Part shown: one piece after another, positions 23,409 to 35,660 of the stretch
Layout of the letters: every line of letters begins with the position of its first letter
How positions within the stretch are numbered: the first letter of the stretch is position 1
Origin: a bacterium
GTDB lineage: Bacteria > Patescibacteriota > Microgenomatia > UBA1400 > UBA12108
Length of the DNA: 51,936 bases
Direction: 5' to 3'
NCBI GenBank assembly: GCA_043827085.1
Contig: JBDRPO010000010.1
Location: forward strand, 1 to 51,936
Program-made: the position numbers and the translations under genes
The notes under the pieces: model-generated
Databases searched by the model: none
Told to the model about the DNA's origin: nothing
The model's input: the letters and a program-made list of their open reading frames with translations, nothing else

Positions 23409-23963
23409 ATGAAGCAGTGGTTAATGATAGTTTTAGTGATAGTAGGGTTGTTGGTTGGAGTGGTTTCGTTGTATATGGCCTCTTTATCAGGAGTGATGTC
23501 AAAGATGGGGTTAGTTGGAGGAGATTTTAGTCAGTCTATAGATGTAAATGAATTGGCGAGACAGCTTGTTGGGCAAAAAGAGGAGTTTTCTTGTAGTGTT
23601 TGGCACGTCGCAGGTCACGTACCAGGGTATTTTTTCGCACAGGGAGAGCAAAAAGCGATGTTGGCAGGTCAATTAGGGGGGGAGAGAATCATATGTGGGA
23701 TTAGACTGGTGCAAAACGGGAATGTAGAGAGGGGAGTTTACACGATCGTGAAAGGCCTGTATTATCTGAAAAATTATTATGTTGAGATGCGAGTATTGAT
23801 TGAAAAAGATCCAAAGAAATGCAATCTGGTCGAATCAAAGTACGAAAGATGGGTGGAAGGATATCTCTTGGCGACAGAGGGGCGAGCACAAGAAGTGGTG
23901 TTTGGTGTGTATAAACAAGTGGAGGCAGCAAGGGTAGGGGTGGAAGAGTTGTGTATTGACTAG
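23409..23963 (+). CDS. Hypothetical exported or membrane protein
   Basis: N-terminal hydrophobic helix, four Cys. Confidence 0.7.
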   Translation: MKQWLMIVLVIVGLLVGVVSLYMASLSGVMSKMGLVGGDFSQSIDVNELARQLVGQKEEFSCSVWHVAGHVPGYFFAQGEQKAMLAGQLGGERIICGIRLVQNGNVERGVYTIVKGLYYLKNYYVEMRVLIEKDPKKCNLVESKYERWVEGYLLATEGRAQEVVFGVYKQVEAARVGVEELCID

Positions 23964-24029
23964 GTAGAAGAGAAGATTTAGGATGAAATTAGTTAACAAG
24001 TGATGGTTTGAGAGTGTAAGGAAGAGGGT

Positions 24030-25493
24030 GTGAATCCCTCTCTGTGCCGCAACTGTAAAAGACAGGAACTTCCTCTCAAACTACCTTTATTGAGCCTTCC
24101 GAGCGAGAAGGTGAAGGAGTTGAGAGTGTCTCCAGAGTCTTCTAGTGTTTGTTCTATAGAGTTGTTTAAGAGCGATTTTGATTTGGATTTTTACGAACCC
24201 AGTGATCTATTTGAAGTGGAAACGCACGTACGTTCGTTTTTCGGGGAAAAATTGATGAGACCCAGAAGGGAAAGGTTGTGGGTGGGAAGTGATGGAACGT
24301 TAGATCCTAATTATGTGACAATGATGGAGAAAGCCATTAACTACTGGAATGAGCGAGGTGATAAGAAAGCGGTCGAAAGATTTGAAAAAGAGCTTGAGGG
24401 GGCAAGAAATGCAGTAAGCCTTATCATTGCTTCTAGAGAATTAGGAGAACCCCTGCCGATTGTAATAAACGCGAGTGATCCTGGAGATTTTTACGTTGAT
24501 AAAGAGGGGAGGAAAAAGAGCGTGACTTTCGTGTGGATGAAGGAGTCCACAGAGAGTAGTGGATGGAGATATAGTGTTTACTCAATACCTGCAAAGTATA
24601 TTGGATTAGAAAAACATTGGGGATTGCTGAAGAAGCTTGGAGATATACAACGGACGCAAGATATTTTGAAGAAAATGTTTGACGAAACTGAGCTTAGTGC
24701 GGATAGTCTCATTGCGTTCCCGTTAATTGTGACTAGTTTAACTCAAGGGATGGATGAGATTGCAGGTGAGTTAGGATATCCAACCTGGGATGAGATTGAC
24801 CGAATCGCTGCGGATCAACTAGCAATGGAAGAAGACCAACACGCAAAAGAAAGAAGAGAACAGGTCGTAATCGAGTTTACGGCTAGGATTTTCTATGCCG
24901 TCAAAGACGGAAAGTCGAAGGAGTATAAGCAAGCTCTCGTGGCGGCATTGTCAGATACGATGGCGCTTGAGGCTGGGAGTAGAGATTATTTGGGAATGGA
25001 TAAAGATCAAATTAAGAGTGAGATCGATAAAAATGTGCGTTTGGCCTTGGCGGTAAAGTATAAAGTATTTGAGAAAAAGAGTTACTATGAACTCAAAGAT
25101 TTGGGCATACGGTTCGGAGATTTGGGGGACTTGTATAGGCACTATCAATGGGTGAGTGCTGCGTTTAATACTAATCCCCTCGCGAGAGAAGCTCGAGCTA
25201 CTGGATGTGGTGGGTCTGGAATTAGTTATGGATCTGATATGTTCTCTAGCCGAGACTTTGCATTTAGAGATGTCAGTATCTTAATTGAAAGTCAGAGTTT
25301 CTACTCAAGTACTACCGAATCTACAACAATAACTACAGATGGGGAGGAGCCCGACGGTCGATATCCGGAGGGAAAATACAAACCGGGACATTGTAGAGCC
25401 TGTGATACTGATCGTAAGAAAGTGTGGCACAAAGAAGATGGTGGATGTGATTGCTGCACAATTTGTGAACGTAGGCTTGCAGGCGGTGATTAA
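24030..25493 (+). CDS. Hypothetical protein with Cys-rich C-terminus
   Basis: 487-aa ORF; ends CRAC...CDCCTIC after an S/T-rich linker. Confidence 0.7.
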   Translation: MNPSLCRNCKRQELPLKLPLLSLPSEKVKELRVSPESSSVCSIELFKSDFDLDFYEPSDLFEVETHVRSFFGEKLMRPRRERLWVGSDGTLDPNYVTMMEKAINYWNERGDKKAVERFEKELEGARNAVSLIIASRELGEPLPIVINASDPGDFYVDKEGRKKSVTFVWMKESTESSGWRYSVYSIPAKYIGLEKHWGLLKKLGDIQRTQDILKKMFDETELSADSLIAFPLIVTSLTQGMDEIAGELGYPTWDEIDRIAADQLAMEEDQHAKERREQVVIEFTARIFYAVKDGKSKEYKQALVAALSDTMALEAGSRDYLGMDKDQIKSEIDKNVRLALAVKYKVFEKKSYYELKDLGIRFGDLGDLYRHYQWVSAAFNTNPLAREARATGCGGSGISYGSDMFSSRDFAFRDVSILIESQSFYSSTTESTTITTDGEEPDGRYPEGKYKPGHCRACDTDRKKVWHKEDGGCDCCTICERRLAGGD

Positions 25494-25604: not shown

Positions 25605-26063
25605 ATGCAGTGCCCATATTGTCATAACGAAGATACTTCTGTTCTCGAGTCGAGGATTACAGCCGAAGGGGGGGCAATGAGGAGACGGAGAGAGTGTACC
25701 AAGTGTGGGAAGCGCTTTACTACCTATGAGCGGGCAGAGGGAGTAGATATCAAGGTAGTGAAGAAATCAGGTAAGATCGAGGATTTTGATCGGGAGAAAC
25801 TTCGACGCGGGATTATGAAGGCCACCTGGAAAAGGCCGGTGTCAATGGAGCAGATTGAGAGCATGGTGGATGAAGTGGAGCGGATCCTGCGGCGGAAGAC
25901 TACTACCGAAGTACGCTCATGGGAGATAGGAAATTTGGTGATCAATAGACTGAAAAAGATTGATCCACTAGCATATTTACTTTTTGCTTCGGTGTACCGA
26001 GAGTTCGAGTCACTAAATGATTTTAGCGAAGAGATAACTAAGTTAAAAGAGGACAATAAATGA
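25605..26063 (+). CDS. nrdR: Transcriptional repressor NrdR
   Basis: CPYC...RRRRECTKC..RFTTYE Zn ribbon, ATP-cone VVKKSG, AYLLFASVY; SD GGAGGTG. Confidence 0.97.
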   Translation: MQCPYCHNEDTSVLESRITAEGGAMRRRRECTKCGKRFTTYERAEGVDIKVVKKSGKIEDFDREKLRRGIMKATWKRPVSMEQIESMVDEVERILRRKTTTEVRSWEIGNLVINRLKKIDPLAYLLFASVYREFESLNDFSEEITKLKEDNK

Positions 26064-29000
26064 AAGCCAAACTCAACCCTAACGCGGCGGCAATCATGGT
26101 AAACCGTTATAGTTTGCGGGATGAGGGGGGGCAGCCAGTGGAGTCACCGGCTGAGATTTTGATGCGGAGCGCCAGGGTGGTAGCTGAAGCAGAGAATAAT
26201 TACCGTAGTGGTGGAGCGACAGCGATTGAAGTGAGAGAGAAGTTTTTTGAGATTCTTTATGATATGAGGTTTGTGCCAAACGGGCGAACGATGGCAAATG
26301 CGGGGACTAAGTATGGACAACTTGCCAATTGTTTCGTCCTACCGGTAGACGACGATCTTGGTAAAGGAGCCGACTCGATTTTTTCGGTGCTTCGCAAGGC
26401 GATTCTGACCTTACAGACTGGGGGAGGGGTAGGCTTTTCGTTTGGGAGAATTCGGCCAAAAGACGCCGCTATCACTACAACTAAGGGGAAGGCAACGGGG
26501 GCAGTCTCGTTTATTAAAGTTTACGACACGGCATTTTGGGTGATCGGGCAAGGAGGGGGGAGGCGCTCAGCCGCGATGGCAGTACTACCCGTGTGGCATC
26601 CGGACATTCTAGAGTTTGTGAAGTGCAAGAGTGAAGAGGGGACGATTACCAACTTTAATATCTCGGTTGGCATAACGGACGAATTTATGCAGGCTGTCAA
26701 GAAAGATGATGATTTCACACTCCGACACCCAGAAAATGGGGAGATGTATAAAATGGTACCAGCGAGAGAGTTATTTGCTGAGATTGTGAAAAGTGCATAT
26801 AAGAACGGGGAGCCGGGAGTATTATTTCTTGACGAGGCAAATCGGACCAATCCAGTGCCGCACCTTTATAAATTGGAGGCAACAAATCCTTGTGTTACAG
26901 GAGATACTTTGGTAGCTACTCCGAATGGATGGATAAGAGTAGATCAAATTAATGAAGGAGATAAAGTGAATACTGTATTGGGATTAGGTAAGATAGAAAA
27001 GCGAGAGGTGCACGAAAAGAAGAAGATTTACCTAATTAAGTTTTCCGATGGGGGTGTAGTAAAAGCAACTGCAGCTCACCAATTTCATACCCGTAGTAGT
27101 AGAACTAAATTCTTTACTCCAACTAAACTGAGTGAAATAACAGTGGGGGATTGGGTGAGAGTTGCAAAATCATGCTTACCAAGCAAGATGGCTCCACCAA
27201 GTAATGTGAATATTGGAGAAAGAGATTATGGATTTTTAACGGGAGTATTGCTTGGGGATGGTTGTTACACGGAGAGATCCTTGTCAAAGAATGTGGTGCG
27301 AATAAGTACTCATGATGATGAGCGTGAGTGGAATGAGTTGCTAAAACAAAAATTTTCCATGATTGGTGCTACAAATATGTATACGTATGTGAACAAAAAT
27401 AGTCACTCAATGATGATGGATCCAAAACCAGGAAAGATGGTGGCTGAGTGGGTCAAATCTTTGAAATTAACGCCCTCCATAAGTCTGGATAAAGATATTC
27501 CAATGGAATATGTGAATAGTAATGGAGAATTTTTACGGGGACTGCTTGATGGGTTATTTAGTACAGATGGAAGTGTGGATTTGTCGGCTAACCATCCGAT
27601 TGTAAGATTTCATACTGGGAGCGTCAAACTAGCTGAGAAGGTGAGATTGATACTCTTAATGTTTGGGATTCATGGGAGATCAATAAAATCAAAACGAGCT
27701 CCTCATAAAACATCTGATGGGAGGATAATTTCAAATAAGAATCCTAAATATGATGTGGTAGTGGTGGGTGAGAGTTTTGGAAGATTTTTTGAACAAATTA
27801 CATTAAGTCATCCTGAAAAACAAGCCAAAATGAAACAAGCTGCATTAACAGTGAATTTTACTGGTGGGAATTGGGCTGCTCAGGTAAAGTCTATAGAAGA
27901 ATTTGGAGAAGAAAAAGTTTACGATCTATACGAACCCAATAGTGATACTTGGATTACAAATGGTTATGTGTCGAGGGGATGTGGAGAACAGTTCTTGGGA
28001 CCGTACGAAAATTGTTGTTTGGGGTCACTAAACCTGCGGGAACATATAAAGAAAATTAAGGGTGACGGATACCAAGTTGATTGGGAGAAGCTATCTGAGA
28101 CGATCGAGCTTGCGGTGCGATTTTTAGACAATGTAGTGGATGCCAATAAATATGTATCTGCAGTGCCGGAACTCGAGGAGGCGGCACATAAAGTAAGAAG
28201 AATAGGATTGTCGGTGATGGGGCTTTCCGACATGATGTACTTGGTGGGGGTGCGATATGGGGGATCCAAGGGACAGGATCTAGCTAGCCAAATCATGGAG
28301 TTTGTGCGCTACCATGCGATGATTACTTCGATTAAACTAGCTAGAGTGAGAGGGCCTTTTCCAGGAATTGTGGGGAGTATTTATGACCCACAGAATATGA
28401 AATGGAGCGCTCCTAAGCCACTGGTGGCACATAAAACTGATTTTGGAAGGCCGAGTTTAGACTGGAAGAAGTTGATCGTGGATTTGAAGCAGTATGGGAT
28501 ACGTAATGGAGCACAGACGACAGTCGCACCAACCGGCTCAATTGCAACCATTTCAGGACTTGAAGGATATGGATGTGAGCCAGTATTTGCTTTGTCGTAT
28601 GTTAGACACACCCGCGAGGGGGCGGAAAAAGAGGGAAAAGAGTGGAGAGAGATGTACTATGAAAGTTATTTGTTTGAGATGGCAATGAAGAAATCTGGAC
28701 TGTCAAAGAGTGAGCGCAACAAGTTGTTTGAACAGGTACGGGATAATGGAGGAAGCCTAAAAGGAATTTCTGGAGTGCCAAAGGAAATTGCGGAGATATG
28801 TGTAGTATCGTCTGATTTGAGCTTTGAGGAACACGTGAGAATGCAGGCAGTGATGCAGAGGTGGATCGACAACTCGATTAGTAAGACAATAAATTTTCCG
28901 AGTACCGCGACCCCCGACGATGTGGCAAAAGCCTACCAGCTTGGATGGGAGCTGGGACTTAAAGGAATGACTGTGTATGTGGAAGGGTCACGGGAGCAGG

Positions 29001-29152
29001 TGATACTGGAGAAGAAGATTGGACCTTATGAAACTAAAGAAGATAAACAAGTCACTCCTCAAGAATTGTGCCCAGAGTGCGGAACGCCGATGCGCCGCGA
29101 GGAAGGGTGTTCAACTTGCCCGTCATGCGCATACTCGAAATGCGATAAATAA
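26060..29152 (+). CDS. nrdJ: Class II (AdoCbl-dependent) ribonucleotide reductase, copy 1, intein-containing
   Basis: QLANCFV, GGGVG, GEPG, NP|CGEQ, CCLGS, RRIGL, APTG, SISKTIN, C-terminal CPEC..CPSC. Confidence 0.92.
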   Translation: MKAKLNPNAAAIMVNRYSLRDEGGQPVESPAEILMRSARVVAEAENNYRSGGATAIEVREKFFEILYDMRFVPNGRTMANAGTKYGQLANCFVLPVDDDLGKGADSIFSVLRKAILTLQTGGGVGFSFGRIRPKDAAITTTKGKATGAVSFIKVYDTAFWVIGQGGGRRSAAMAVLPVWHPDILEFVKCKSEEGTITNFNISVGITDEFMQAVKKDDDFTLRHPENGEMYKMVPARELFAEIVKSAYKNGEPGVLFLDEANRTNPVPHLYKLEATNPCVTGDTLVATPNGWIRVDQINEGDKVNTVLGLGKIEKREVHEKKKIYLIKFSDGGVVKATAAHQFHTRSSRTKFFTPTKLSEITVGDWVRVAKSCLPSKMAPPSNVNIGERDYGFLTGVLLGDGCYTERSLSKNVVRISTHDDEREWNELLKQKFSMIGATNMYTYVNKNSHSMMMDPKPGKMVAEWVKSLKLTPSISLDKDIPMEYVNSNGEFLRGLLDGLFSTDGSVDLSANHPIVRFHTGSVKLAEKVRLILLMFGIHGRSIKSKRAPHKTSDGRIISNKNPKYDVVVVGESFGRFFEQITLSHPEKQAKMKQAALTVNFTGGNWAAQVKSIEEFGEEKVYDLYEPNSDTWITNGYVSRGCGEQFLGPYENCCLGSLNLREHIKKIKGDGYQVDWEKLSETIELAVRFLDNVVDANKYVSAVPELEEAAHKVRRIGLSVMGLSDMMYLVGVRYGGSKGQDLASQIMEFVRYHAMITSIKLARVRGPFPGIVGSIYDPQNMKWSAPKPLVAHKTDFGRPSLDWKKLIVDLKQYGIRNGAQTTVAPTGSIATISGLEGYGCEPVFALSYVRHTREGAEKEGKEWREMYYESYLFEMAMKKSGLSKSERNKLFEQVRDNGGSLKGISGVPKEIAEICVVSSDLSFEEHVRMQAVMQRWIDNSISKTINFPSTATPDDVAKAYQLGWELGLKGMTVYVEGSREQVILEKKIGPYETKEDKQVTPQELCPECGTPMRREEGCSTCPSCAYSKCDK
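26891..27979 (+). mobile_element. 363-aa LAGLIDADG intein with non-canonical C-terminus (...GYVSRG|C)
   Basis: Block A CVTGDTLV, block B ATAAH, LAGLIDADG GVLLGDG and GLFSTDG, block F VYDL; removal restores NPCGEQ. Confidence 0.85.
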
Positions 29153-29221
29153 TAACCAATAACCAAGCACTAAATTACAAACAATAAACACAAAAATAAT
29201 AAATTAAAAATTATAAAACAA

Positions 29222-32200
29222 ATGACAAAACCGAAAATCATTGAACCAAAGCTGACGAAGAATGCCCTAGAAGTAGCGAGGAAGCGGTATTTGCGAACAG
29301 ACATGAAGGGTAGGGTTGTGGAGACGCCGGGAGAGATGTTGTGGCGAGTGGCGTACCATATGGCAAAGCCTGAAGTGCAATGGGGAACGAATGGGATTGT
29401 GATGGAGATGGCGAATAAGTTTTACGAGCGTATGACTAGCCTGAAAATGGTGTGTGCCGGTAAGGCCATGTTTGAGGCGGGGAATCCGGGAGGAACGGGA
29501 CAACTGTCGTCTTGTTTTGTCCTTCCTATTGACGATTCAATTCAGACGATTTTTAAGACTTTGGGGGACGCGGCGGTCGTACATAAAAACAATGGGGGAA
29601 CAGGGTTTAACTTTAGTAAGATCAGGCCCCATGGAGATAAGGTAAAGAATGTACCTGGGGCGGCTAGTGGGCCAGTTGACTTTCTTAAGGCATATTCGGC
29701 AGCCTTGGCGCAGATATTGCAGGGAGCAAAGAGGCAAGGGGCAAATATTGGAATACTGAATGTGGATCATCCGGACGTCGAAGAGTTTATTTATCTAAAG
29801 GACCTTGATGGGACGATCAAGAATTTTAATGTGTCAGTGGGGGTAAACGATGAATTTATGCAGGCGGTCGAAGCAGATAAGTACTGGAATTTAGTTAATC
29901 CGCGGAGTCATGAGGTGGTAAAGAGAGTAAAGGCAAAGTCCCTATTTAACAAAATAGCAGTACAAGCATGGAAGACGGGGGATCCAGGACTGATGTTTTT
30001 GGACAATACAGAAAAAGGGAATACGGTTCCGAATTATGGAAAGTTAGAGGCGACTAACCCATGTGTGACAGGTGATACCATGGTGGCAACTAACAAAGGG
30101 TGGGAGAGAATTGATCAGTTGATTAACCGAGACGAAGTATTAGTTATTGTGGATACACGAGTGATTGGTGTACAGAAAATAGAAACAAAGAGAACAACTC
30201 AAGTAATTAAAACTGGTGATAAACAAGTATATAAGTTAGAAACAAAGAGTGGATACAGTTTAAAGGCGACGTCGGATCATAAGATTATGACCACTGAAGG
30301 TTGGAAAGAGGTGAAATTGTTGAGAACGGGAGACAGGGTATTGATACAACATGATAAGGGTGAGTTTGAGAAAGAGAGCAAACTTCATTTTAAATGGAAC
30401 AATAGGAAAATTGGCAAAAACGGTCGAAAGTACCAATTCCAACTGCCGTTAAATTGGAATAAAGAACTTGGGGTATTGTTGGGCTGGTTAGTTGGAGATG
30501 GATTTGTACGTGAAGAAACAGAAAAGCACGGGGCGTACTTAAATTTAACTTTTGGAAGAGGTAAAGAAAAAGCAAGAGATTATTTCTTGGAATTACTGTC
30601 AAAATGGTGTGGATCTGCGAGAGCACATGAAGCAACAGAGCGAACTAAACAAATATTTGTTAGTAGCAAGTTTGTGGTGGATTACTTTGTACAACTTGGT
30701 GTAGGAACTAAGAGATCTGAGTACAAGCGCGTACCAAATAGTATTTTTACAGCGCCTAAAGAGATGGTAATTGGGTTCTTGCAAGGATTATTTTCTTCGG
30801 ATGGGAAAGTGGGATATGTGAAAAACAAATCTGCCTATGTACGTCTAACTAGTAAATCTCGAGATCTGTTAACCGACGTGCAGTTACTTTTGCTTCAACT
30901 AGGTATTAAAACGAGGGTATATGACAGATCAAGAGGTGAACGGATCAACTTGTTCCCCGAGTATACGAACGCTAATGGTGAGGTAAAACGTTATGGATCA
31001 GATGGAGCTTTATGGGAAATCGAGATTTCAAAAGATGTAGTGATCAAATTTATTGATGATATTGGATTTTTGTTTGATATGCACAGCGACAAAGTTAAGT
31101 TGTTAAGAAGCAAAACTTATTACACAACTAAATGGGATGACGTAATTGTGTCTATAGAAAAGCTTGGAATTGAGCCAGTTTATGATTTGACAGAGCCAGA
31201 AACCCATTCATTTATTGCTGGAGGGATAGTAGTCCACAACTGTGGTGAGATAGCCCTTTTCCCATATGAGTCATGTAACTTGACTAGCATCGATTTGGCA
31301 AGACATATTAAGGGGAAGAAAGTTGATTGGGAAGAACTAAGAGAAACAGTGCGGTTGGGGGTGAGGTTTCTCGACAACATGATCGAGGTAAACGCGTACC
31401 CGGTACCAGAGATTGAGGCAGCGGTAAAAAACGGCAACCGGCGGATAGGGCTCGGAGTAATGGGATTTGCTCACGTGCTGTACCGGATGGGAATCCCATA
31501 TAACTCAAATGAAGCAGTGAAATTGGCGAAAGAACTAGCAAAGTTTATTTATGAGACGGCAGCAGAAATGTCGGCGGAGCTCGCCGAAGTACGGGGTAAC
31601 TTCCCCAACTGGGATCTCTCGATTTATCCGGCAAAGGGACAGCCGATGCGTAACTGTGCGGTGACAATGATCGCGCCGACCGGAACAATCTCAATCTTGG
31701 TCGATACGAGCTCTGGGATTGAGCCAGTGTTTGCACTAGTTACCAAAAGACGGACTTTTTATGAGGATGATAAAGTGAATCATTCTACGAAAGAACTGTT
31801 AATGGTTGATCCTGTATTTGAAGAATACATAGGGAAGAGAAAAAATATTCTCGAGCAAGTGGTAAATGGTGATTATTCGGGGCTAAGTGAAGAGGAAAAA
31901 AAGATTTTTGTGACGACACACACAATTCTCCCTGAGTGGCACGTAAAGATCCAGGCTGCGTGGCAGAAATACTTTGATAATTCGATCAGTAAGACAGTAA
32001 ATTTCCCCCACACTGCAACGGTGGAGGATGTAAAAACAACTTATATGATGGCGTGGAAGTTGGGATGTAAGGGGGTAACGATTTATCGGGATGGAAGTAA
32101 GGGGGATCAAGTGCTCTCGACTAGTCAGCCAATCAGTGAGCCAGTAGATCAGAAAGAAGACTTGGTTTGCCCGGAATGTGGGGGCAAGCTACACAAGCAA

Positions 32201-32248
32201 GATGGGTGCTCGAAATGCATTGATTGTGGGTTTAGCGTATGTGGATAA
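29222..32248 (+). CDS. nrdJ: Class II ribonucleotide reductase, copy 2, intein-containing
   Basis: QLSSCFV, GGTG, GDPG, NP|CGE, SCNL, RRIGLG, APTG, SISKT, C-terminal CPEC..CIDC. Confidence 0.92.
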   Translation: MTKPKIIEPKLTKNALEVARKRYLRTDMKGRVVETPGEMLWRVAYHMAKPEVQWGTNGIVMEMANKFYERMTSLKMVCAGKAMFEAGNPGGTGQLSSCFVLPIDDSIQTIFKTLGDAAVVHKNNGGTGFNFSKIRPHGDKVKNVPGAASGPVDFLKAYSAALAQILQGAKRQGANIGILNVDHPDVEEFIYLKDLDGTIKNFNVSVGVNDEFMQAVEADKYWNLVNPRSHEVVKRVKAKSLFNKIAVQAWKTGDPGLMFLDNTEKGNTVPNYGKLEATNPCVTGDTMVATNKGWERIDQLINRDEVLVIVDTRVIGVQKIETKRTTQVIKTGDKQVYKLETKSGYSLKATSDHKIMTTEGWKEVKLLRTGDRVLIQHDKGEFEKESKLHFKWNNRKIGKNGRKYQFQLPLNWNKELGVLLGWLVGDGFVREETEKHGAYLNLTFGRGKEKARDYFLELLSKWCGSARAHEATERTKQIFVSSKFVVDYFVQLGVGTKRSEYKRVPNSIFTAPKEMVIGFLQGLFSSDGKVGYVKNKSAYVRLTSKSRDLLTDVQLLLLQLGIKTRVYDRSRGERINLFPEYTNANGEVKRYGSDGALWEIEISKDVVIKFIDDIGFLFDMHSDKVKLLRSKTYYTTKWDDVIVSIEKLGIEPVYDLTEPETHSFIAGGIVVHNCGEIALFPYESCNLTSIDLARHIKGKKVDWEELRETVRLGVRFLDNMIEVNAYPVPEIEAAVKNGNRRIGLGVMGFAHVLYRMGIPYNSNEAVKLAKELAKFIYETAAEMSAELAEVRGNFPNWDLSIYPAKGQPMRNCAVTMIAPTGTISILVDTSSGIEPVFALVTKRRTFYEDDKVNHSTKELLMVDPVFEEYIGKRKNILEQVVNGDYSGLSEEEKKIFVTTHTILPEWHVKIQAAWQKYFDNSISKTVNFPHTATVEDVKTTYMMAWKLGCKGVTIYRDGSKGDQVLSTSQPISEPVDQKEDLVCPECGGKLHKQDGCSKCIDCGFSVCG
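30062..31240 (+). mobile_element. 393-aa canonical LAGLIDADG intein
   Basis: CVTGDT, ATSDH, GWLVGDG and GLFSSDG, VYDL...HSF, ends VVHN|C. Confidence 0.93.
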
Positions 32249-34461
32249 ATAGAATCATTAAACGAGATGGGAGAGAGGTGGAATTCAGGTTAGAAAAACT
32301 GGCGGAGGCAATTAGTAAGGCAGGGATACAGACTAAAGAGTTTGGGGAGAAAGAAGCAAAGAGGTTAGCGGAAATAGTTGTGGTGCTTGTTGAAAAGTCG
32401 TTAAAGGAAAGGGAAATCGCACAGGTCGAAAAAATTCAAGATATTGTTGAACAGGTGCTGATGGCGGCGGGACACTACCAAACAGCTAAGGCATATATTT
32501 TGTATCGACAAGCAAGGAGCGAAGAGAGACGAGTCGAGCGGATTATCGGAGTAAAAGATGATTTGGATTTGACACCGAACCAACTAAAAGTTCTCTCTAG
32601 CAGATATCTACTAAAAGACGAGGAAGGAAGGGTAATTGAGACGCCTAGCGAGTTATTTCGTCGAGTGGCTAAGAATCTGGCAGTAGTTGAAAAGAAAGAT
32701 AAGCGGAAAAAGATAGAAGAGCAATTTTATGAAGTGATGAGCAGACTTGAGTTTTTACCGGCGGGGAGGACTTTAAACAACGCGGGGACACCCCAGTCCC
32801 AACTGGCAAATTGCTTTGTCCTCCCCATCGAGGACTCGATGGAGGGGATTTTTGACTCGGTGAAATATATGGCACTTGTACACCAGCGGGGCGGGGGAAC
32901 TGGGTTTAACTTTAGCAAGCTGAGGCCGAAGGGGGATGTGGTCACGAAATCGTCGGGTGGATTTGCGACGGGGCCGGTGTCGTTTATGAAGGTGTTTGAT
33001 ATTGCGACACGCCAAGTGATGCAGGGAGGTAAGAAACGCGGAGCCAACATGGGGATATTAAATGTGGATCACCCCGACATATTAGAGTTTGTCAATTGTA
33101 AGAGTGAGACGGGGGAGATTGAGAATTTTAATATTTCGGTGGGAGTATCGGACGCATTTATGAAGGCAGTGGAAACGAACTCTGACTGGGAGTTAAAGAA
33201 CCCGCGAACTGGAGAGGTAGTACAGACACTTCGAGCGCGGAGCTTGATGTCGCAACTAGTCGCACACGCGTGGCGGACGGGGGATCCAGGACTGATATTT
33301 CTAGATCTAATTAATCGCAATAACCCACTATTGAAGAGTTATGGACGAATCGATTCGACGAATCCGTGTGGAGAACAACCGCTCCATCCGTTTGATGCGT
33401 GTAATTTGGGGTCTATCAACTTGGCTAGGTTGGTGGGTAAAAATGGAGTGGATTGGGTGCGACTTGAGTTGGTGGTAAGGACAGGAGTGCGAATGCTTGA
33501 CGACGTGGTTGATGCATGTCGCTATCCACTTCCGCAAATTACGGAGACGGTACGCGCGAACAGGCGAATTGGGCTTGGAGTGATGGGATTTGCGGATATG
33601 CTTTATCAACTAAGGGTCCCCTATGACTCAGAGGCAGGAGTAAGACTGGCGACAAAATTAGCGAAGTTTATCCAAGAGACAAGTTGGAGTGAAAGTGAGA
33701 AACTCGCTAAAGAGAAGGGAGCGTTTCCTAGGTGGAAAGAATCTAGTTTTAAAATCAAGGTCAGAAATTTGGCGATTACGACAATTGCGCCAACGGGGAG
33801 TATTTCGATGCTTGCGGATGCATCAAGCGGGATTGAACCAGTGTTTGCCCTCGCTTTCACTAAAAATGTAGTAGAAGACAATGGACTGTTGTACATCAAT
33901 AAGTATTTTGCACAAGAACTCGCTGAGTCATCCTGGGCGGATGGGGACGCGGAGCATAAGGTGCGCGATAGAATAGTGCGGGAAGTGGCACAATTGGGGA
34001 GTGTGGCGCAGGTTTCTGGAGTACCCGACGAGGTAAAAGCGATATATCGGACGGCTCATGATATCACGCCGGAGTGGCACGTGAGGATGCAGTCGGCGTG
34101 GCAGAAGTATACGGATAATGCGGTCAGCAAAACAATAAACTTTCCTCATAGCGCTACGATTGATGATGTGGAGTCAGCGTATATATCAGCGTGGAAGCTC
34201 GGGTGTAAGGGGATCACAATATACAGAGATGGAAGTAAGGAGGGACAGATTCTATCAGTAGGGACAAAATCTGAGAAGTTAGACGCTAGACTCCAGACTC
34301 CAGTGAGATCGCAGATAATCCAGAGCAAGATCAAAACAGAGACACTAAAAGAGAGAAGTCAAAAGCTAAAAGAGGGGTGCCCGGAGTGTGGAGGGAAATT
34401 AGTGACGGAAGAGGGTTGTAGTAAATGTTATGGTTGCGGATTTAGTATGTGTAATGGGTGA
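32239..34461 (+). CDS. nrdJ: Class II ribonucleotide reductase, copy 3, with N-terminal ATP-cone and no intein
   Basis: IIKRDG ATP-cone, QLANCFV, intact NPCGEQ at 33361, ACNLGS, APTG, C-terminal CPEC..CYGC. Confidence 0.93.
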   Translation: MWINRIIKRDGREVEFRLEKLAEAISKAGIQTKEFGEKEAKRLAEIVVVLVEKSLKEREIAQVEKIQDIVEQVLMAAGHYQTAKAYILYRQARSEERRVERIIGVKDDLDLTPNQLKVLSSRYLLKDEEGRVIETPSELFRRVAKNLAVVEKKDKRKKIEEQFYEVMSRLEFLPAGRTLNNAGTPQSQLANCFVLPIEDSMEGIFDSVKYMALVHQRGGGTGFNFSKLRPKGDVVTKSSGGFATGPVSFMKVFDIATRQVMQGGKKRGANMGILNVDHPDILEFVNCKSETGEIENFNISVGVSDAFMKAVETNSDWELKNPRTGEVVQTLRARSLMSQLVAHAWRTGDPGLIFLDLINRNNPLLKSYGRIDSTNPCGEQPLHPFDACNLGSINLARLVGKNGVDWVRLELVVRTGVRMLDDVVDACRYPLPQITETVRANRRIGLGVMGFADMLYQLRVPYDSEAGVRLATKLAKFIQETSWSESEKLAKEKGAFPRWKESSFKIKVRNLAITTIAPTGSISMLADASSGIEPVFALAFTKNVVEDNGLLYINKYFAQELAESSWADGDAEHKVRDRIVREVAQLGSVAQVSGVPDEVKAIYRTAHDITPEWHVRMQSAWQKYTDNAVSKTINFPHSATIDDVESAYISAWKLGCKGITIYRDGSKEGQILSVGTKSEKLDARLQTPVRSQIIQSKIKTETLKERSQKLKEGCPECGGKLVTEEGCSKCYGCGFSMCNG

Positions 34462-34512: not shown

Positions 34513-35142
34513 ATGCATAAAATTATATTGGCGAGTGGGAGCCCGAGAAGAAAAGAAATACTCACGTTATTGGGACTTAATTTTGAGGTGGTTGATTCAT
34601 TATTTGACGAGAATCTGATAAAGACCGATGATCCAGTGGAGATGGTGGAGGAGCTCGCCATCCAGAAAGCTCTTGCGGTTGCGAAAAAACACCCCGATGC
34701 AGTCATAATCGGCGGAGATACGACGGTAGAAATCGACGGTGAGATTTTGGGGAAAGCGACAACGAAGGAAGAAGCTAGTGAAATATTTGGGAAGCTACTA
34801 GGTAAGACTCACCAGGTAGTGACGGGAGTGGTAGTTGTTGATTCTCTGACGGGAGAGTCGTTTGCAGGGAGCGAGGTGGGGGTCGTGAAATTTCGCGCTC
34901 CACTCCATGGAGAACTAGATAAATATGTAGAGGAGGAGAAAAACTGGCGAGGGTTTGCGGGAGCGTACGCCTTACAGGGGGGAGCGGCTCCGTTTACACA
35001 GGAACAAACGGGTAAGTTGTCGGCGATTATTGGGATGCCGGTTGAGCTGACCGCCGCACTTCTAGAGCAAGCGGGAGTAATTATTGAAGTAGATCCACAG
35101 GAGATAGAATTGAGTCTCTATGGAAAGAAAGTGGGGATATGA
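34513..35142 (+). CDS. maf: Maf-family nucleotide pyrophosphatase
   Basis: ILASGSPRR, FDE, KA, DT, LGK, AGAY. Confidence 0.92.
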   Translation: MHKIILASGSPRRKEILTLLGLNFEVVDSLFDENLIKTDDPVEMVEELAIQKALAVAKKHPDAVIIGGDTTVEIDGEILGKATTKEEASEIFGKLLGKTHQVVTGVVVVDSLTGESFAGSEVGVVKFRAPLHGELDKYVEEEKNWRGFAGAYALQGGAAPFTQEQTGKLSAIIGMPVELTAALLEQAGVIIEVDPQEIELSLYGKKVGI

Positions 35143-35660
35143 GAGAAGGATTGGTGTATGTGTTTACGGGCGAGGGGAAGGGGAAGACGTCGGCGGCTTT
35201 GGGGGTGGCGGTGCGGGCAGCGCTCTCAGGGATGAAAGTGGCGATCGTACAGTGGTACAAGGAAAAGAGGTGGCCGATTGCCGAGCACAAACTGGGAGAT
35301 AAGTTTGAGAATATTGAGATATACCCCATGGGGAGTGGGTTTTATAAGCTGCCGAGTGATCACGCGAGTCCTACCGAGCACAAGAAAGCGGCTCAGGATG
35401 CGTTGGTTCAGGCAGGCGAGCTGATAGGAGAGGTGGATTTACTAGTCTTGGATGAGATATATAATGCGGTGAGAGATAAGCTTTTAACAGAAAAGGAGGT
35501 GCTAGAGCTGATAGGGGAGCGAAGGGAAACTCATTTGGTATTGACGGGGAGAGGAGCAACGGAAAGAATTATTGAGGCAGCAGACTTGGTGACGGAGTGC
35601 AGGAAAATTAAGCATCCATATGATAGAGGGAAAATTGCAGTTCGTGGACTAGATTATTAA
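35139..35660 (+). CDS. btuR: ATP:cob(I)alamin adenosyltransferase (CobA/BtuR/CobO)
   Basis: TGEGKGKTSAALG, VLDE, LTGR, ADLVTE, KHPY..G...RG. Confidence 0.92.
   Translation: MREGLVYVFTGEGKGKTSAALGVAVRAALSGMKVAIVQWYKEKRWPIAEHKLGDKFENIEIYPMGSGFYKLPSDHASPTEHKKAAQDALVQAGELIGEVDLLVLDEIYNAVRDKLLTEKEVLELIGERRETHLVLTGRGATERIIEAADLVTECRKIKHPYDRGKIAVRGLDY

What the first reader, a model, noticed from the sequence alone, without database searches (positions are those of the whole stretch)
26891..27982. Intein ending in Arg-Gly (no Asn, Gln or Asp) at the catalytic cysteine of an RNR
Seen: NrdJ1 reads EATNP|CVTGDT...VYDLYEPNSDTWITNGYVSRG|CGEQ, with junction codons TCG AGG GGA TGT. Cys1, block B TxxH, the block F Asp, both LAGLIDADG motifs and the +1 Cys are intact. 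The block F His, penultimate His and terminal Asn are all absent, whereas the neighbouring NrdJ2 intein has the canonical HSF...VVHN|C. Established: branch resolution needs cyclisation of a terminal Asn (rarely Gln or Asp), and the +1 Cys here is the thiyl-radical Cys of NPCGE. Gly has no side chain to cyclise. Inference: three coordinated changes in an intact ORF are unlikely to be one base-call error. This may be an intein class with different C-terminal chemistry, a cleavage-only or branched switch, or a splicing-dead insert tolerated because two paralogs back it up.
Basis: partly seen in the sequence, partly recalled or inferred. Interest (0 to 1): 0.85.

Follow-up and report, generated by a model that had tools for sequence, protein, structure and literature searches.

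The report
Conserved intein family ending in glycine
A self-splicing protein insert in a DNA-precursor enzyme lacks the end residue that known inteins use to cut themselves free, yet it belongs to a large conserved family that often sits in an organism's only copy of that enzyme, so it probably splices by a chemistry not yet described.

Summary
NrdJ1 (26060-29152, +) carries a 363-aa LAGLIDADG intein (26891-27979) between NP and the thiyl-radical Cys. It ends SDTWITNGYVSRG|CGEQ. It is not a dead allele or a base-call error. All 209 Gly-ending inteins at this site among the fetched proteins have Asp where canonical inteins have the block F His; none of 32 Asn-, Asp- or Gln-ending allelic inteins do. 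The terminal Gly uses all four Gly codons across 80 genomes. With the trait columns removed, the Gly-type is one clade inside a grade of Asp-ending RNR inteins. In 20 of 24 genomes checked, including a chromosome-level 5.4-Mb Chloroflexia assembly, the intein-bearing gene is the only class I/II RNR locus and no class III RNR is found. The insert must therefore be removed. Endonuclease-free mini-inteins of 129-155 aa keep the same ending. Best reading: steps 1-2 are canonical. Step 3 uses the invariant Asp352, which lies across the beta-hairpin from Gly363, instead of terminal-residue cyclisation. This step is inferred, not shown. Eight literature searches found no Gly-ending intein. Splicing has not been demonstrated.

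The parts
25605..26063 (+). nrdR (Zn-ribbon plus ATP-cone repressor) directly upstream of the nrdJ array
   Evidence: Pfam PF22811 and PF03477
26060..29152 (+). nrdJ1 precursor gene (class II RNR, 1030 aa, with a Cys-rich C-terminal tail)
   Evidence: PF02867 matches 2-523/523 at 397 bits across the insert.
26060..26890 (+). N-extein, ending ...LEATNP
   Evidence: 79-92% amino-acid identity to orthologues in L008-L012 with dS saturated.
26891..27979 (+). Gly-ending LAGLIDADG intein, 363 aa (P0004)
   Evidence: AF2 pLDDT 89.3. Best PDB fold matches are intein homing endonucleases.
26891..26893 (+). Cys1 codon (block A nucleophile)
   Evidence: Invariant in 62 of 62 Gly-type representatives
27068..27079 (+). 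Block B T60-A-A-H63
   Evidence: His63 in 62 of 62, Thr60 in 58 of 62.
27230..27262 (+). LAGLIDADG motif 1 (GFLTGVLLGDG, Asp123)
   Evidence: PF14528. G118 in 62 of 62, D123 in 56 of 62.
27539..27571 (+). LAGLIDADG motif 2 (GLLDGLFSTDG, Asp226)
   Evidence: G221 and G227 in 62 of 62, D226 in 58 of 62
27917..27961 (+). Block F, VYDLYEPNSDTWITN, with Asp345 (F:4)
   Evidence: D345 in 62 of 62
27944..27946 (+). Asp352 codon (GAT) at the position of the canonical block F His; proposed relocated carboxylate
   Evidence: Asp in 209 of 209 Gly-enders and 0 of 32 others. GAT 40 / GAC 40 in 80 loci. Leu/Ile here in 116 of 119 Asp-type relatives.
27962..27979 (+). Block G, GYVSRG; Arg362 replaces the penultimate His, Gly363 replaces the terminal Asn
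   Evidence: Gly363 in 62 of 62. All four Gly codons and all six Arg codons are used.
27980..27982 (+). +1 Cys codon: the thiyl-radical Cys of NPCGE
   Evidence: Invariant. NrdJ3 reads TNPCGEQ without an insert.
27980..29152 (+). C-extein (CGEQ... to the stop)
   Evidence: 70-85% identity to orthologues with dS saturated.
29222..32248 (+). nrdJ2, with a canonical allelic intein at 30062-31240 (ends VVHN|C)
   Evidence: TIGR01443 intein_Cterm match.
32239..34461 (+). nrdJ3, intein-less, with an N-terminal ATP-cone
35139..35660 (+). ATP:corrinoid adenosyltransferase (BtuR/CobO); fits B12-dependent RNRs
   Evidence: PF02572

Best explanation
The insert is a working member of a large, old, horizontally mobile family of inteins that are allelic at the thiyl-radical Cys of class II (and related) RNRs. 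All of them end in Gly.

Steps 1 and 2 are proposed to run as in class 1 inteins: an N-S acyl shift at Pro-Cys1, then transfer of the N-extein to Cys+1. Every residue needed for these steps is invariant.

Step 3 cannot be cyclisation of the last residue. I propose that the invariant Asp352 does the job. It sits where canonical inteins have the block F His and where the sister Asp-ending inteins have Leu. In the model it lies directly across the F/G beta-hairpin from Gly363. It would act either as a nucleophile on the Gly363 carbonyl (a mixed anhydride that is later hydrolysed) or as a general base for water. Arg362 would help polarise the bond or stabilise the oxyanion, and Gly363 would give room and flexibility. 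An S-N shift then yields NPCGE.

Shown: conservation, covariation, phylogeny, and sole-RNR context. Inferred: that splicing occurs, and the role of Asp352.
For: 1. Family trait, not an allele. All 120 best relatives listed (58-82% identity) end in Gly|C. So do representatives down to about 28% identity.

2. Perfect covariation. Of 241 inteins at this site, 209 end in Gly and all 209 have Asp at -12. None of the 32 ending in Asn, Asp or Gln have it. In the Asp-type family, 116 of 119 have Leu/Ile at -12.

3. Selection on the residues. Across 80 loci Gly uses GGT 18, GGA 30, GGG 15, GGC 17; Asp uses GAT 40, GAC 40; Arg uses six codons. Against L008-L012, dN is 0.07-0.28 with dS saturated, for exteins and intein alike.

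4. Tree without the trait columns. The Gly-type is one clade (SH-aLRT 84) nested among Asp-enders (100 and 94). Asn- and Gln-types lie outside when the tree is rooted on one Asn-type row.

5. It must be removed. In 20 of 24 genomes, all PF02867 matches lie in the intein-bearing locus and no NrdD is found. These include G001, a chromosome-level 5.4-Mb assembly.

6. At least 10 mini-inteins of 129-155 aa lack the endonuclease domain and keep Cys1, Asp(-12) and Gly(-1).

7. Geometry. In the AF2 model (pLDDT 89.3), DSSP gives strands at construct residues 361-364 and 367-370 around the N-G turn. That register puts Asp352 opposite Gly363 (the register is my inference). The review PMC4031507 (section 6 read) says His F:13 and His G:6 act on Asn G:7.

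8. Precedent: class 3 inteins moved a nucleophile into block F (PMC4031507, passages).
Against: - No biochemical evidence exists that any member splices.
The hairpin register is inferred from DSSP only.
- Asp352 could instead be structural, for example a salt bridge with Arg362 that replaces a Leu/Leu contact of the Asp-type. However, 27 of 209 Gly-enders lack Arg at -2 and still have the Asp.
- Other Gly-type-specific charged residues (Asp24, Glu39, Arg90) could be the real catalysts.
- The 80 genome loci were fetched with patterns that contain the motif itself, so '80 of 80 end in Gly' is not independent.
- Most of the genomes are MAGs of unreported completeness, so a second RNR could have been missed in some.
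- In this window's own genome, three other NrdJ paralogues exist, so NrdJ1 need not be essential here.
Confidence: 0.55

Rival explanations
1. Thioester route at the C-terminal junction, Hedgehog-like. Cys+1 makes an N-S acyl shift on the Gly363-Cys bond; Gly-Cys is the junction that Hint domains of Hedgehog proteins activate. The freed alpha-amine of Cys+1 takes the N-extein. The intein then leaves by hydrolysis of the Gly thioester, or by attack of its own Cys1, which would give a cyclic intein.
For: Gly is invariant before Cys+1. In the Hedgehog Hint domain the Cys attacks the carbonyl of the preceding Gly (PMC3207474, passage seen). Asp352 and Arg362 could serve this shift equally well.
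Against: The downstream sequence is an RNR barrel, not a Hint domain, so nothing is known to activate this bond from the C-extein side. The thiol of Cys+1 is needed for step 2 in all known classes. The kinship with Asp-enders points to a carboxylate chemistry. There is no direct evidence.
Confidence: 0.12
2. Conditional or slow intein. Steps 1-2 run, but step 3 is intrinsically slow or gated (by pH, redox state or substrate). The intein would then act as a post-translational switch on RNR activity, and the branched intermediate or precursor would accumulate.
For: The intein sits on the catalytic Cys. The review notes that a slow step 3 can be tolerated in variant inteins (PMC4031507 section 6). 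This genome keeps four NrdJ paralogues under an NrdR gene.
Against: This does not by itself explain how the Gly-Cys bond is ever cut. Sole-RNR genomes need a productive outcome. It is compatible with, rather than alternative to, the main reading.
Confidence: 0.1
3. Cleavage without ligation. The intein is cut out at both ends, and the two RNR pieces assemble non-covalently into an active enzyme.
For: A fragmented RNR large subunit that assembles from pieces is described in the abstract of PMC3045599 (listing only).
Against: The break would lie at the tip of the finger loop, with the radical Cys as a free N-terminus. It still needs an unexplained cleavage of Gly|Cys. The residues for steps 1-2 are all conserved, as expected for ligation.
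Confidence: 0.05
4. A host factor, or a second intein, cuts the RG|C bond in trans.
For: Some hosts carry further inteins in the same protein (ORFs of 1600-2600 aa). Three representatives have a canonical Asn-ending intein fused directly upstream.
Against: The family occurs in Chloroflexota, Patescibacteria, DPANN and other archaea, so a shared host factor is unlikely. G001's ORF of 1225 aa has room for only this one intein. The window's own intein has no fused partner.
Confidence: 0.05
5. Splicing-dead remnant tolerated because paralogues supply RNR activity, or a sequencing or assembly error.
For: This genome has three other NrdJ genes. Only contigs, not raw reads, could be laid.
Against: The same ending occurs in hundreds of independent assemblies with synonymous codon turnover. 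Exteins and intein are under purifying selection. It is the sole RNR in 20 of 24 genomes. Mini-inteins keep the motif.
Confidence: 0.03

Closest known systems
Asp-ending RNR inteins (the Chy RIR1 type of Carboxydothermus hydrogenoformans; Amitai, Dassa and Pietrokovski, JBC 2004: recalled, not held)
   Same: Same insertion site (NP|C...|CGE). Same LAGLIDADG architecture. Shared block F/G signature T-W-I-T-N-G-Y-x-S. The Gly-type is nested among them in the tree.
   Different: They end in Asp, with Leu/Ile at -12 and Leu/Phe at -2 (116 of 119). The Gly-type ends in Gly, with Asp at -12 and mostly Arg at -2. Whether the database 'D-type' found here includes Chy RIR1 itself was not checked. From memory, that paper reported C-terminal cleavage even with Ala at the end, which would fit a cyclisation-independent route in this lineage. 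I could not read it.
Class 1 inteins with a terminal Asn or Gln (e.g. the neighbouring NrdJ2 intein; CIV RNR and Pab PolII Gln-enders, PMC4031507)
   Same: Cys1, block B TxxH, block F Asp F:4, +1 Cys, Hint plus LAGLIDADG fold.
   Different: There is no cyclisable terminal residue. His F:13 becomes Asp and His G:6 becomes Arg. The NCBIfam intein_Cterm model does not match.
Class 3 inteins (block F Cys nucleophile)
   Same: A catalytic group lost from an intein terminus is replaced by a residue in block F (PMC4031507, passages). This is the same evolutionary logic as proposed here.
   Different: Class 3 relocates the N-terminal nucleophile (Cys F:4) and keeps the terminal Asn. Here Cys1 is kept and the C-terminal chemistry is the part that changed.
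Hedgehog Hint domains and bacterial intein-like (BIL) domains
   Same: Hint fold. A Gly-Cys bond is the one activated in Hedgehog (PMC3207474). These domains process without Asn cyclisation.
   Different: In Hedgehog the Gly-Cys bond is at the N-terminus of the Hint domain. BILs lack the +1 nucleophile (PMC4031507), whereas here Cys+1 is invariant and the host needs ligation.
PI-PfuI, PI-SceI and TliVMA intein homing endonucleases (PDB 1dq3, 1vde, 7qsu)
   Same: Best structural matches of the AF2 model: Foldseek E 5e-18 to 1e-14, TM 0.58-0.63.
   Different: 10-15% sequence identity. No PDB chain matches by sequence. All of these are Asn-enders (recalled).

Membership tests
Intein (Hint-domain protein-splicing element) | In-frame insertion at a conserved host site, with uninterrupted alleles known | tested here: met
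   NrdJ3 and the C20 paralogue read T/VN(P/L)CGEQ without an insert. PF02867 aligns across the insert.
Intein (Hint-domain protein-splicing element) | N-terminal Cys/Ser, block B TxxH, block F Asp, and +1 Cys/Ser/Thr | tested here: met
   C1, T60, H63, D345 and C+1. Invariant or nearly so in 62 representatives. TIGR01445 at 27.5 bits against a cut-off of 24.5.
Intein (Hint-domain protein-splicing element) | Hint fold with a nested homing endonuclease | tested here: met
   AF2 pLDDT 89.3, pTM 0.90. Top Foldseek hits are intein homing endonucleases. PF14528 matches.
Intein (Hint-domain protein-splicing element) | Self-excision with ligation of the exteins | not testable with these tools
   Inferred only, from the sole-RNR genomes and the mini-inteins.
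Class 1 intein / asparagine peptide lyase (MEROPS N9-N11) | Terminal Asn (or Gln/Asp) that cyclises to cut the C-terminal junction; usually a penultimate His | tested here: not met
   Ends Arg-Gly. TIGR01443 has no match at E<=1, while the NrdJ2 intein scores 30 bits. The PF14890 match ends at 152/155 and is below the cut-off.
Asp-ending RNR inteins (Chy RIR1 type) | Terminal Asp at the same insertion site | tested here: not met
   The terminal residue is Gly. The relationship is sister or nested, not membership.
Class 2 / class 3 inteins | No Cys1/Ser1 nucleophile (Ala1; or the block F Cys of the WCT triplet) | tested here: not met
   Cys1 in 62 of 62. F:4 is Asp in 62 of 62.
Bacterial intein-like (BIL) domain | Lacks the +1 nucleophile | tested here: not met
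   Cys+1 is invariant. Definition taken from PMC4031507.
LAGLIDADG homing endonuclease | Two LAGLIDADG motifs, each with a terminal acidic residue | tested here: met
   GVLLGDG and GLFSTDG. D123 in 56 of 62, D226 in 58 of 62. Endonuclease activity was not tested.

The most novel reading that the evidence does not exclude
These are a fourth mechanistic class of inteins. The branched intermediate would be resolved without cyclisation of the terminal residue, by a block F aspartate acting in trans on a terminal glycine. The carboxylate has 'hopped' across the beta-hairpin from the last residue of the Asp-ending ancestors. The excised intein would leave with a plain or transiently anhydride-linked C-terminal Gly instead of a succinimide. 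Natural 129-155-aa mini versions would give protein engineers a new C-terminal cleavage chemistry.
Probability: 0.45. Interest if true: 0.92.

Novelty: new variant of a known kind. Interest (0 to 1): 0.87.

Why it matters
Protein splicing is taught as four steps, and the third is cyclisation of the intein's last residue. The 2014 mechanism review lists only Asn, Gln, Asp (and Glu) as end residues (PMC4031507). MEROPS files inteins as asparagine peptide lyases (PMC3207474).

A family with an invariant terminal Gly, spread through Chloroflexota, Patescibacteria and several archaeal lineages, and lodged in the sole RNR of free-living organisms, implies another way to cut the C-terminal junction. 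If confirmed:

- It adds a mechanistic class of inteins.
- It gives a clean natural experiment: the Asn-, Asp-, Gln- and Gly-ending inteins are allelic at one site.
- It may explain old reports of cyclisation-independent C-terminal cleavage.
- It supplies small natural mini-inteins for cleavage and ligation tools.

It also matters for annotation. The standard C-terminal intein model misses these inserts, and several carriers are named 'hypothetical protein'. Finally, it bears on how RNR activity is matured in CPR and DPANN symbionts.

Tried and rejected
- **Alternative junctions.** I considered EPN|S, ITN|G and YEN|C downstream, and a one-residue shift to NPC|V...GC|G. All were rejected. The C-terminus aligns in exact register with the NrdJ2 intein. 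The downstream Asn is Ser or Ala in the paralogues. The alternatives would leave extra residues in the finger loop.
- **Recoding of the Gly codon.** Rejected, because all four Gly codons occur.
- **PDB sequence search with the intein.** 0 matches.
- **Model coordinates.** The AF2 model's coordinates are not placed in /data. I could not measure the Asp352-Gly363 distance and used the DSSP register only.
- **dN/dS.** NG86 gave dS as not computable (saturated) in 13 of 15 partitions. Only dN and the two computable ratios (0.03 and 0.09) are reported.
- **Reads.** Only Logan contigs were served. X2 and X3 do not reach the junction. X4 covers 27962-28024 with a divergent short contig (9 other letters). 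None of these is evidence either way.
- **Mini-intein script.** The script flagged 15 short inteins. Two of them (P0139, P0142) were artefacts of an internal NPC and were dropped.
- **The search for related loci.** It used patterns drawn from the motif itself, so its 80 of 80 Gly endings are not an independent test. Only the codon spread and the taxonomic spread are used.
- **Choice of genomes.** The 24 genomes were my pick out of 80 loci, favouring long contigs and taxonomic spread. Their completeness is not reported.
- **Literature.** Eight full-text searches, plus passages of PMC4031507, PMC3653736, PMC3207474, 10.1101/2025.01.02.630785, PMC1635734 and PMC4760082, gave no Gly-ending intein. 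Subscription papers, InBase and all supplementary tables (closed) were not seen, so earlier mention cannot be excluded. The supplementary tables of PMC4760082 list RNR inteins and may bear on this.
- **Amitai et al. 2004.** Not held. What I say of it is recalled.
- **Not used.** Complex prediction, the protein-atlas search and the listing of cluster members were not needed.
Full report
**What is there.** The window holds nrdR (25605-26063), followed by three class II RNR genes in tandem. nrdJ1 (26060-29152) and nrdJ2 (29222-32248) are each interrupted at the same point. nrdJ3 (32239-34461) is uninterrupted. Then come maf and a corrinoid adenosyltransferase gene. The genome is an 829-kb, 94%-complete assembly with a fourth, intein-less NrdJ on another contig.

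In NrdJ1 a 363-aa insert (26891-27979) lies between ...LEATNP and CGEQ.... It starts CVTGDT and ends VYDLYEPNSDTWITNGYVSRG. It has Cys1, block B TAAH, block F Asp345, two LAGLIDADG motifs and Cys+1. It lacks the block F His (Asp352 instead), the penultimate His (Arg362) and the terminal Asn (Gly363). The NrdJ2 intein aligns in exact register and ends THSFIAGGIVVHN|C.

NCBIfam's N-terminal intein model matches both inserts. The C-terminal model matches only the NrdJ2 intein. An AF2 model of the NrdJ1 insert with short flanks is confident (pLDDT 89.3, pTM 0.90). Its best PDB matches are intein homing endonucleases: TliVMA, PI-PfuI and PI-SceI.

**Not an error and not a private allele.** A word-indexed search with the insert region gave 862 proteins at E<=1e-3. 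All 120 listed (58-82% identity) end ...G|CGE. They come from Anaerolineae, other Chloroflexota and Patescibacteria, and some lie on Mb-scale contigs. An exhaustive HMMER search of 1.84 billion cluster representatives gave 2218 hits: 78 at E<=1e-30, with 150 listed. Representatives down to about 28% identity keep [ST]-D-T-W-x-T-x-G-x-x-x-x-G|C.

In 80 loci from species-representative genomes, the terminal Gly uses GGT 18, GGA 30, GGG 15 and GGC 17. The Asp uses GAT 40 and GAC 40, and the Arg uses all six codons. The loci were fetched with patterns containing the motif, so their Gly endings are by construction. The codon spread is not by construction, and it shows selection on the amino acids.

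Against the closest orthologues (L008-L012), dN is 0.07-0.28. dS is saturated in 13 of 15 partitions, for both exteins and for the intein. A Logan contig of the probable source run reproduces the stretch without a difference. No raw reads were available.

**The coupled change.** I found 241 inteins at the NP|C...|C[GASF]E site among the fetched proteins. Of these, 209 end in Gly, and all 209 have Asp twelve residues before the end. That is the position of the block F His. None of the other 32 has Asp there: Asn-enders have H/N/G/R/S, Asp-enders have L/F/Y, and Gln-enders have H/N.

A second search, seeded with an Asp-ender, gave 119 further proteins. Of these, 116 read T-[LI]-T-W-...-S-[LF]-D|C. 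In 62 full-length Gly-type representatives the invariant residues are Cys1, Gly13, His63, Gly118, Gly221, Gly227, Asp345, Asp352, Gly358, Gly363 and Cys+1. The position before the end is Arg in 182, Gln in 18, Val in 7 and Leu in 2. So the Asp is not there only to pair with the Arg.

Columns that separate the Gly-type from the Asp-type are 24 (D/M), 39 (E/Y), 90 (R/L), 275, 293, 352 (D/L) and 363 (G/D).

**Descent.** I built an IQ-TREE (quick, LG+G4) from 81 inteins with columns from position 346 onward removed. The 62 Gly-enders fall on one side of a branch (SH-aLRT 84). They sit inside a group with six Asp-enders (100), and inside all ten Asp-enders (94). Asn- and Gln-enders lie outside when the tree is rooted on one Asn-type row. 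The root is a choice, not a result. The Gly-type thus looks derived from Asp-ending RNR inteins, the kind known from Carboxydothermus (recalled).

**It has to come out.** I picked 24 of the 80 genomes and searched them for RNR catalytic subunits. In 20 of them, every PF02867 match lies in the locus that carries the Gly-type intein and no class III NrdD is found:

- G001-G010 and G015-G024 are these 20.
- In G023 the locus is in two adjacent ORFs.
- G014 has NrdD beside it.
- G011 has a second interrupted RNR.
- G012 and G013 are Microgenomates with paralogue arrays like the window's.

G001 is a chromosome-level 5.4-Mb Chloroflexia assembly whose only match is an ORF of 1225 aa with room for this one intein. 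The insert splits the finger loop at the radical Cys, so an unprocessed protein cannot be an RNR (established enzymology; inference).

At least ten representative clusters are mini-inteins of 129-155 aa. They have lost the endonuclease but keep Cys1, Asp(-12) and Gly(-1). Without homing, only the need to splice explains their maintenance (inference).

**How it may work.** The 2014 review states that His F:13 and His G:6 act on the terminal Asn, and that only Asp and Gln (and Glu) are known substitutes, all by cyclisation (PMC4031507, section 6 and passages). Gly cannot cyclise.

In the AF2 model, DSSP gives two short strands (construct residues 361-364 and 367-370) around the N-G turn.

The simplest reading is that the carboxylate of the Asp-ending ancestors moved to the neighbouring strand, and the last residue shrank to Gly to make room. 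After canonical steps 1-2, Asp352 would attack the Gly363 carbonyl, or activate water to do so. This frees Cys+1 for the S-N shift. Class 3 inteins offer a precedent for moving a catalytic group into block F. I put this at about 0.45-0.55.

The rivals are:

- a Hedgehog-like N-S shift at Gly-Cys
- a gated or slow switch
- cleavage without ligation
- help in trans
- a dead remnant (now very unlikely)

**Known or new.** Eight full-text searches and passages of six papers gave no Gly-ending intein (24, 25, 46, 47, 54, 62). A 2020 paper still counts three classes (abstract of PMC7664689, listing). Every record title among the 80 loci reads as a metagenome- or enrichment-derived assembly, and none names a cultured strain. 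That may be why curated intein lists missed the family.

I file it as a new variant of a known kind. It is an intein by architecture and context. It fails the defining C-terminal feature of classes 1-3.

**Verdict.** Interest is high. The decisive step is a splicing assay with MS, plus D352 and G363 mutants.

Noticed in passing
P0130 (345-704 + 705-1061), P0193 (553-816 + 817-1166), P0271 (314-655 + 656-988): Two inteins sit in tandem at the same RNR site. An Asn-ending intein (…GN| or …SN|) is fused directly to Cys1 of a Gly-type intein, so the Gly-type's Cys1 serves as the +1 nucleophile of the upstream intein.
   Followed up: partly
window 26060-34461 and G000:C20:3703-5115: An 829-kb CPR-size genome keeps four NrdJ paralogues. 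Three are in tandem behind nrdR, and two of those carry allelic inteins of different C-terminal type. Similar arrays occur in the Microgenomates genomes G012 and G013.
   Followed up: partly
P0204, P0206, P0212, P0216, P0217, P0229, P0230, P0232, P0233, P0251: Natural Gly-type mini-inteins of 129-155 aa without an endonuclease domain. They are candidates for biochemical work and for tools.
   Followed up: partly
intein residues 24, 39, 90 (window 26960-26962, 27005-27007, 27158-27160): Three further charged residues (Asp24, Glu39, Arg90) are typical of the Gly-type and hydrophobic (Met, Tyr, Leu) in the Asp-type. Their place in the fold was not determined.
   Followed up: no
P0196, P0268, P0227, P0238: Gln-ending inteins at the same RNR site come in two forms...TGQ|CGE and ...HQ|CGE. 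One insertion point therefore hosts Asn-, Gln-, Asp- and Gly-ending alleles.
   Followed up: no
L008, L011, L053, L055, L057, L058: Record titles call these genomes Pseudomonadales or Gammaproteobacteria. Yet their intein-bearing RNR is 72-75% (L008, L011) or 46-48% (the others) identical to the window's. G021 and G022, which hold L053 and L058, are only 1.1-1.2 Mb. The labels may be wrong.
   Followed up: no
window 23409-25493: Two ORFs (184 aa and 487 aa) upstream of nrdR have no Pfam match.
   Followed up: no
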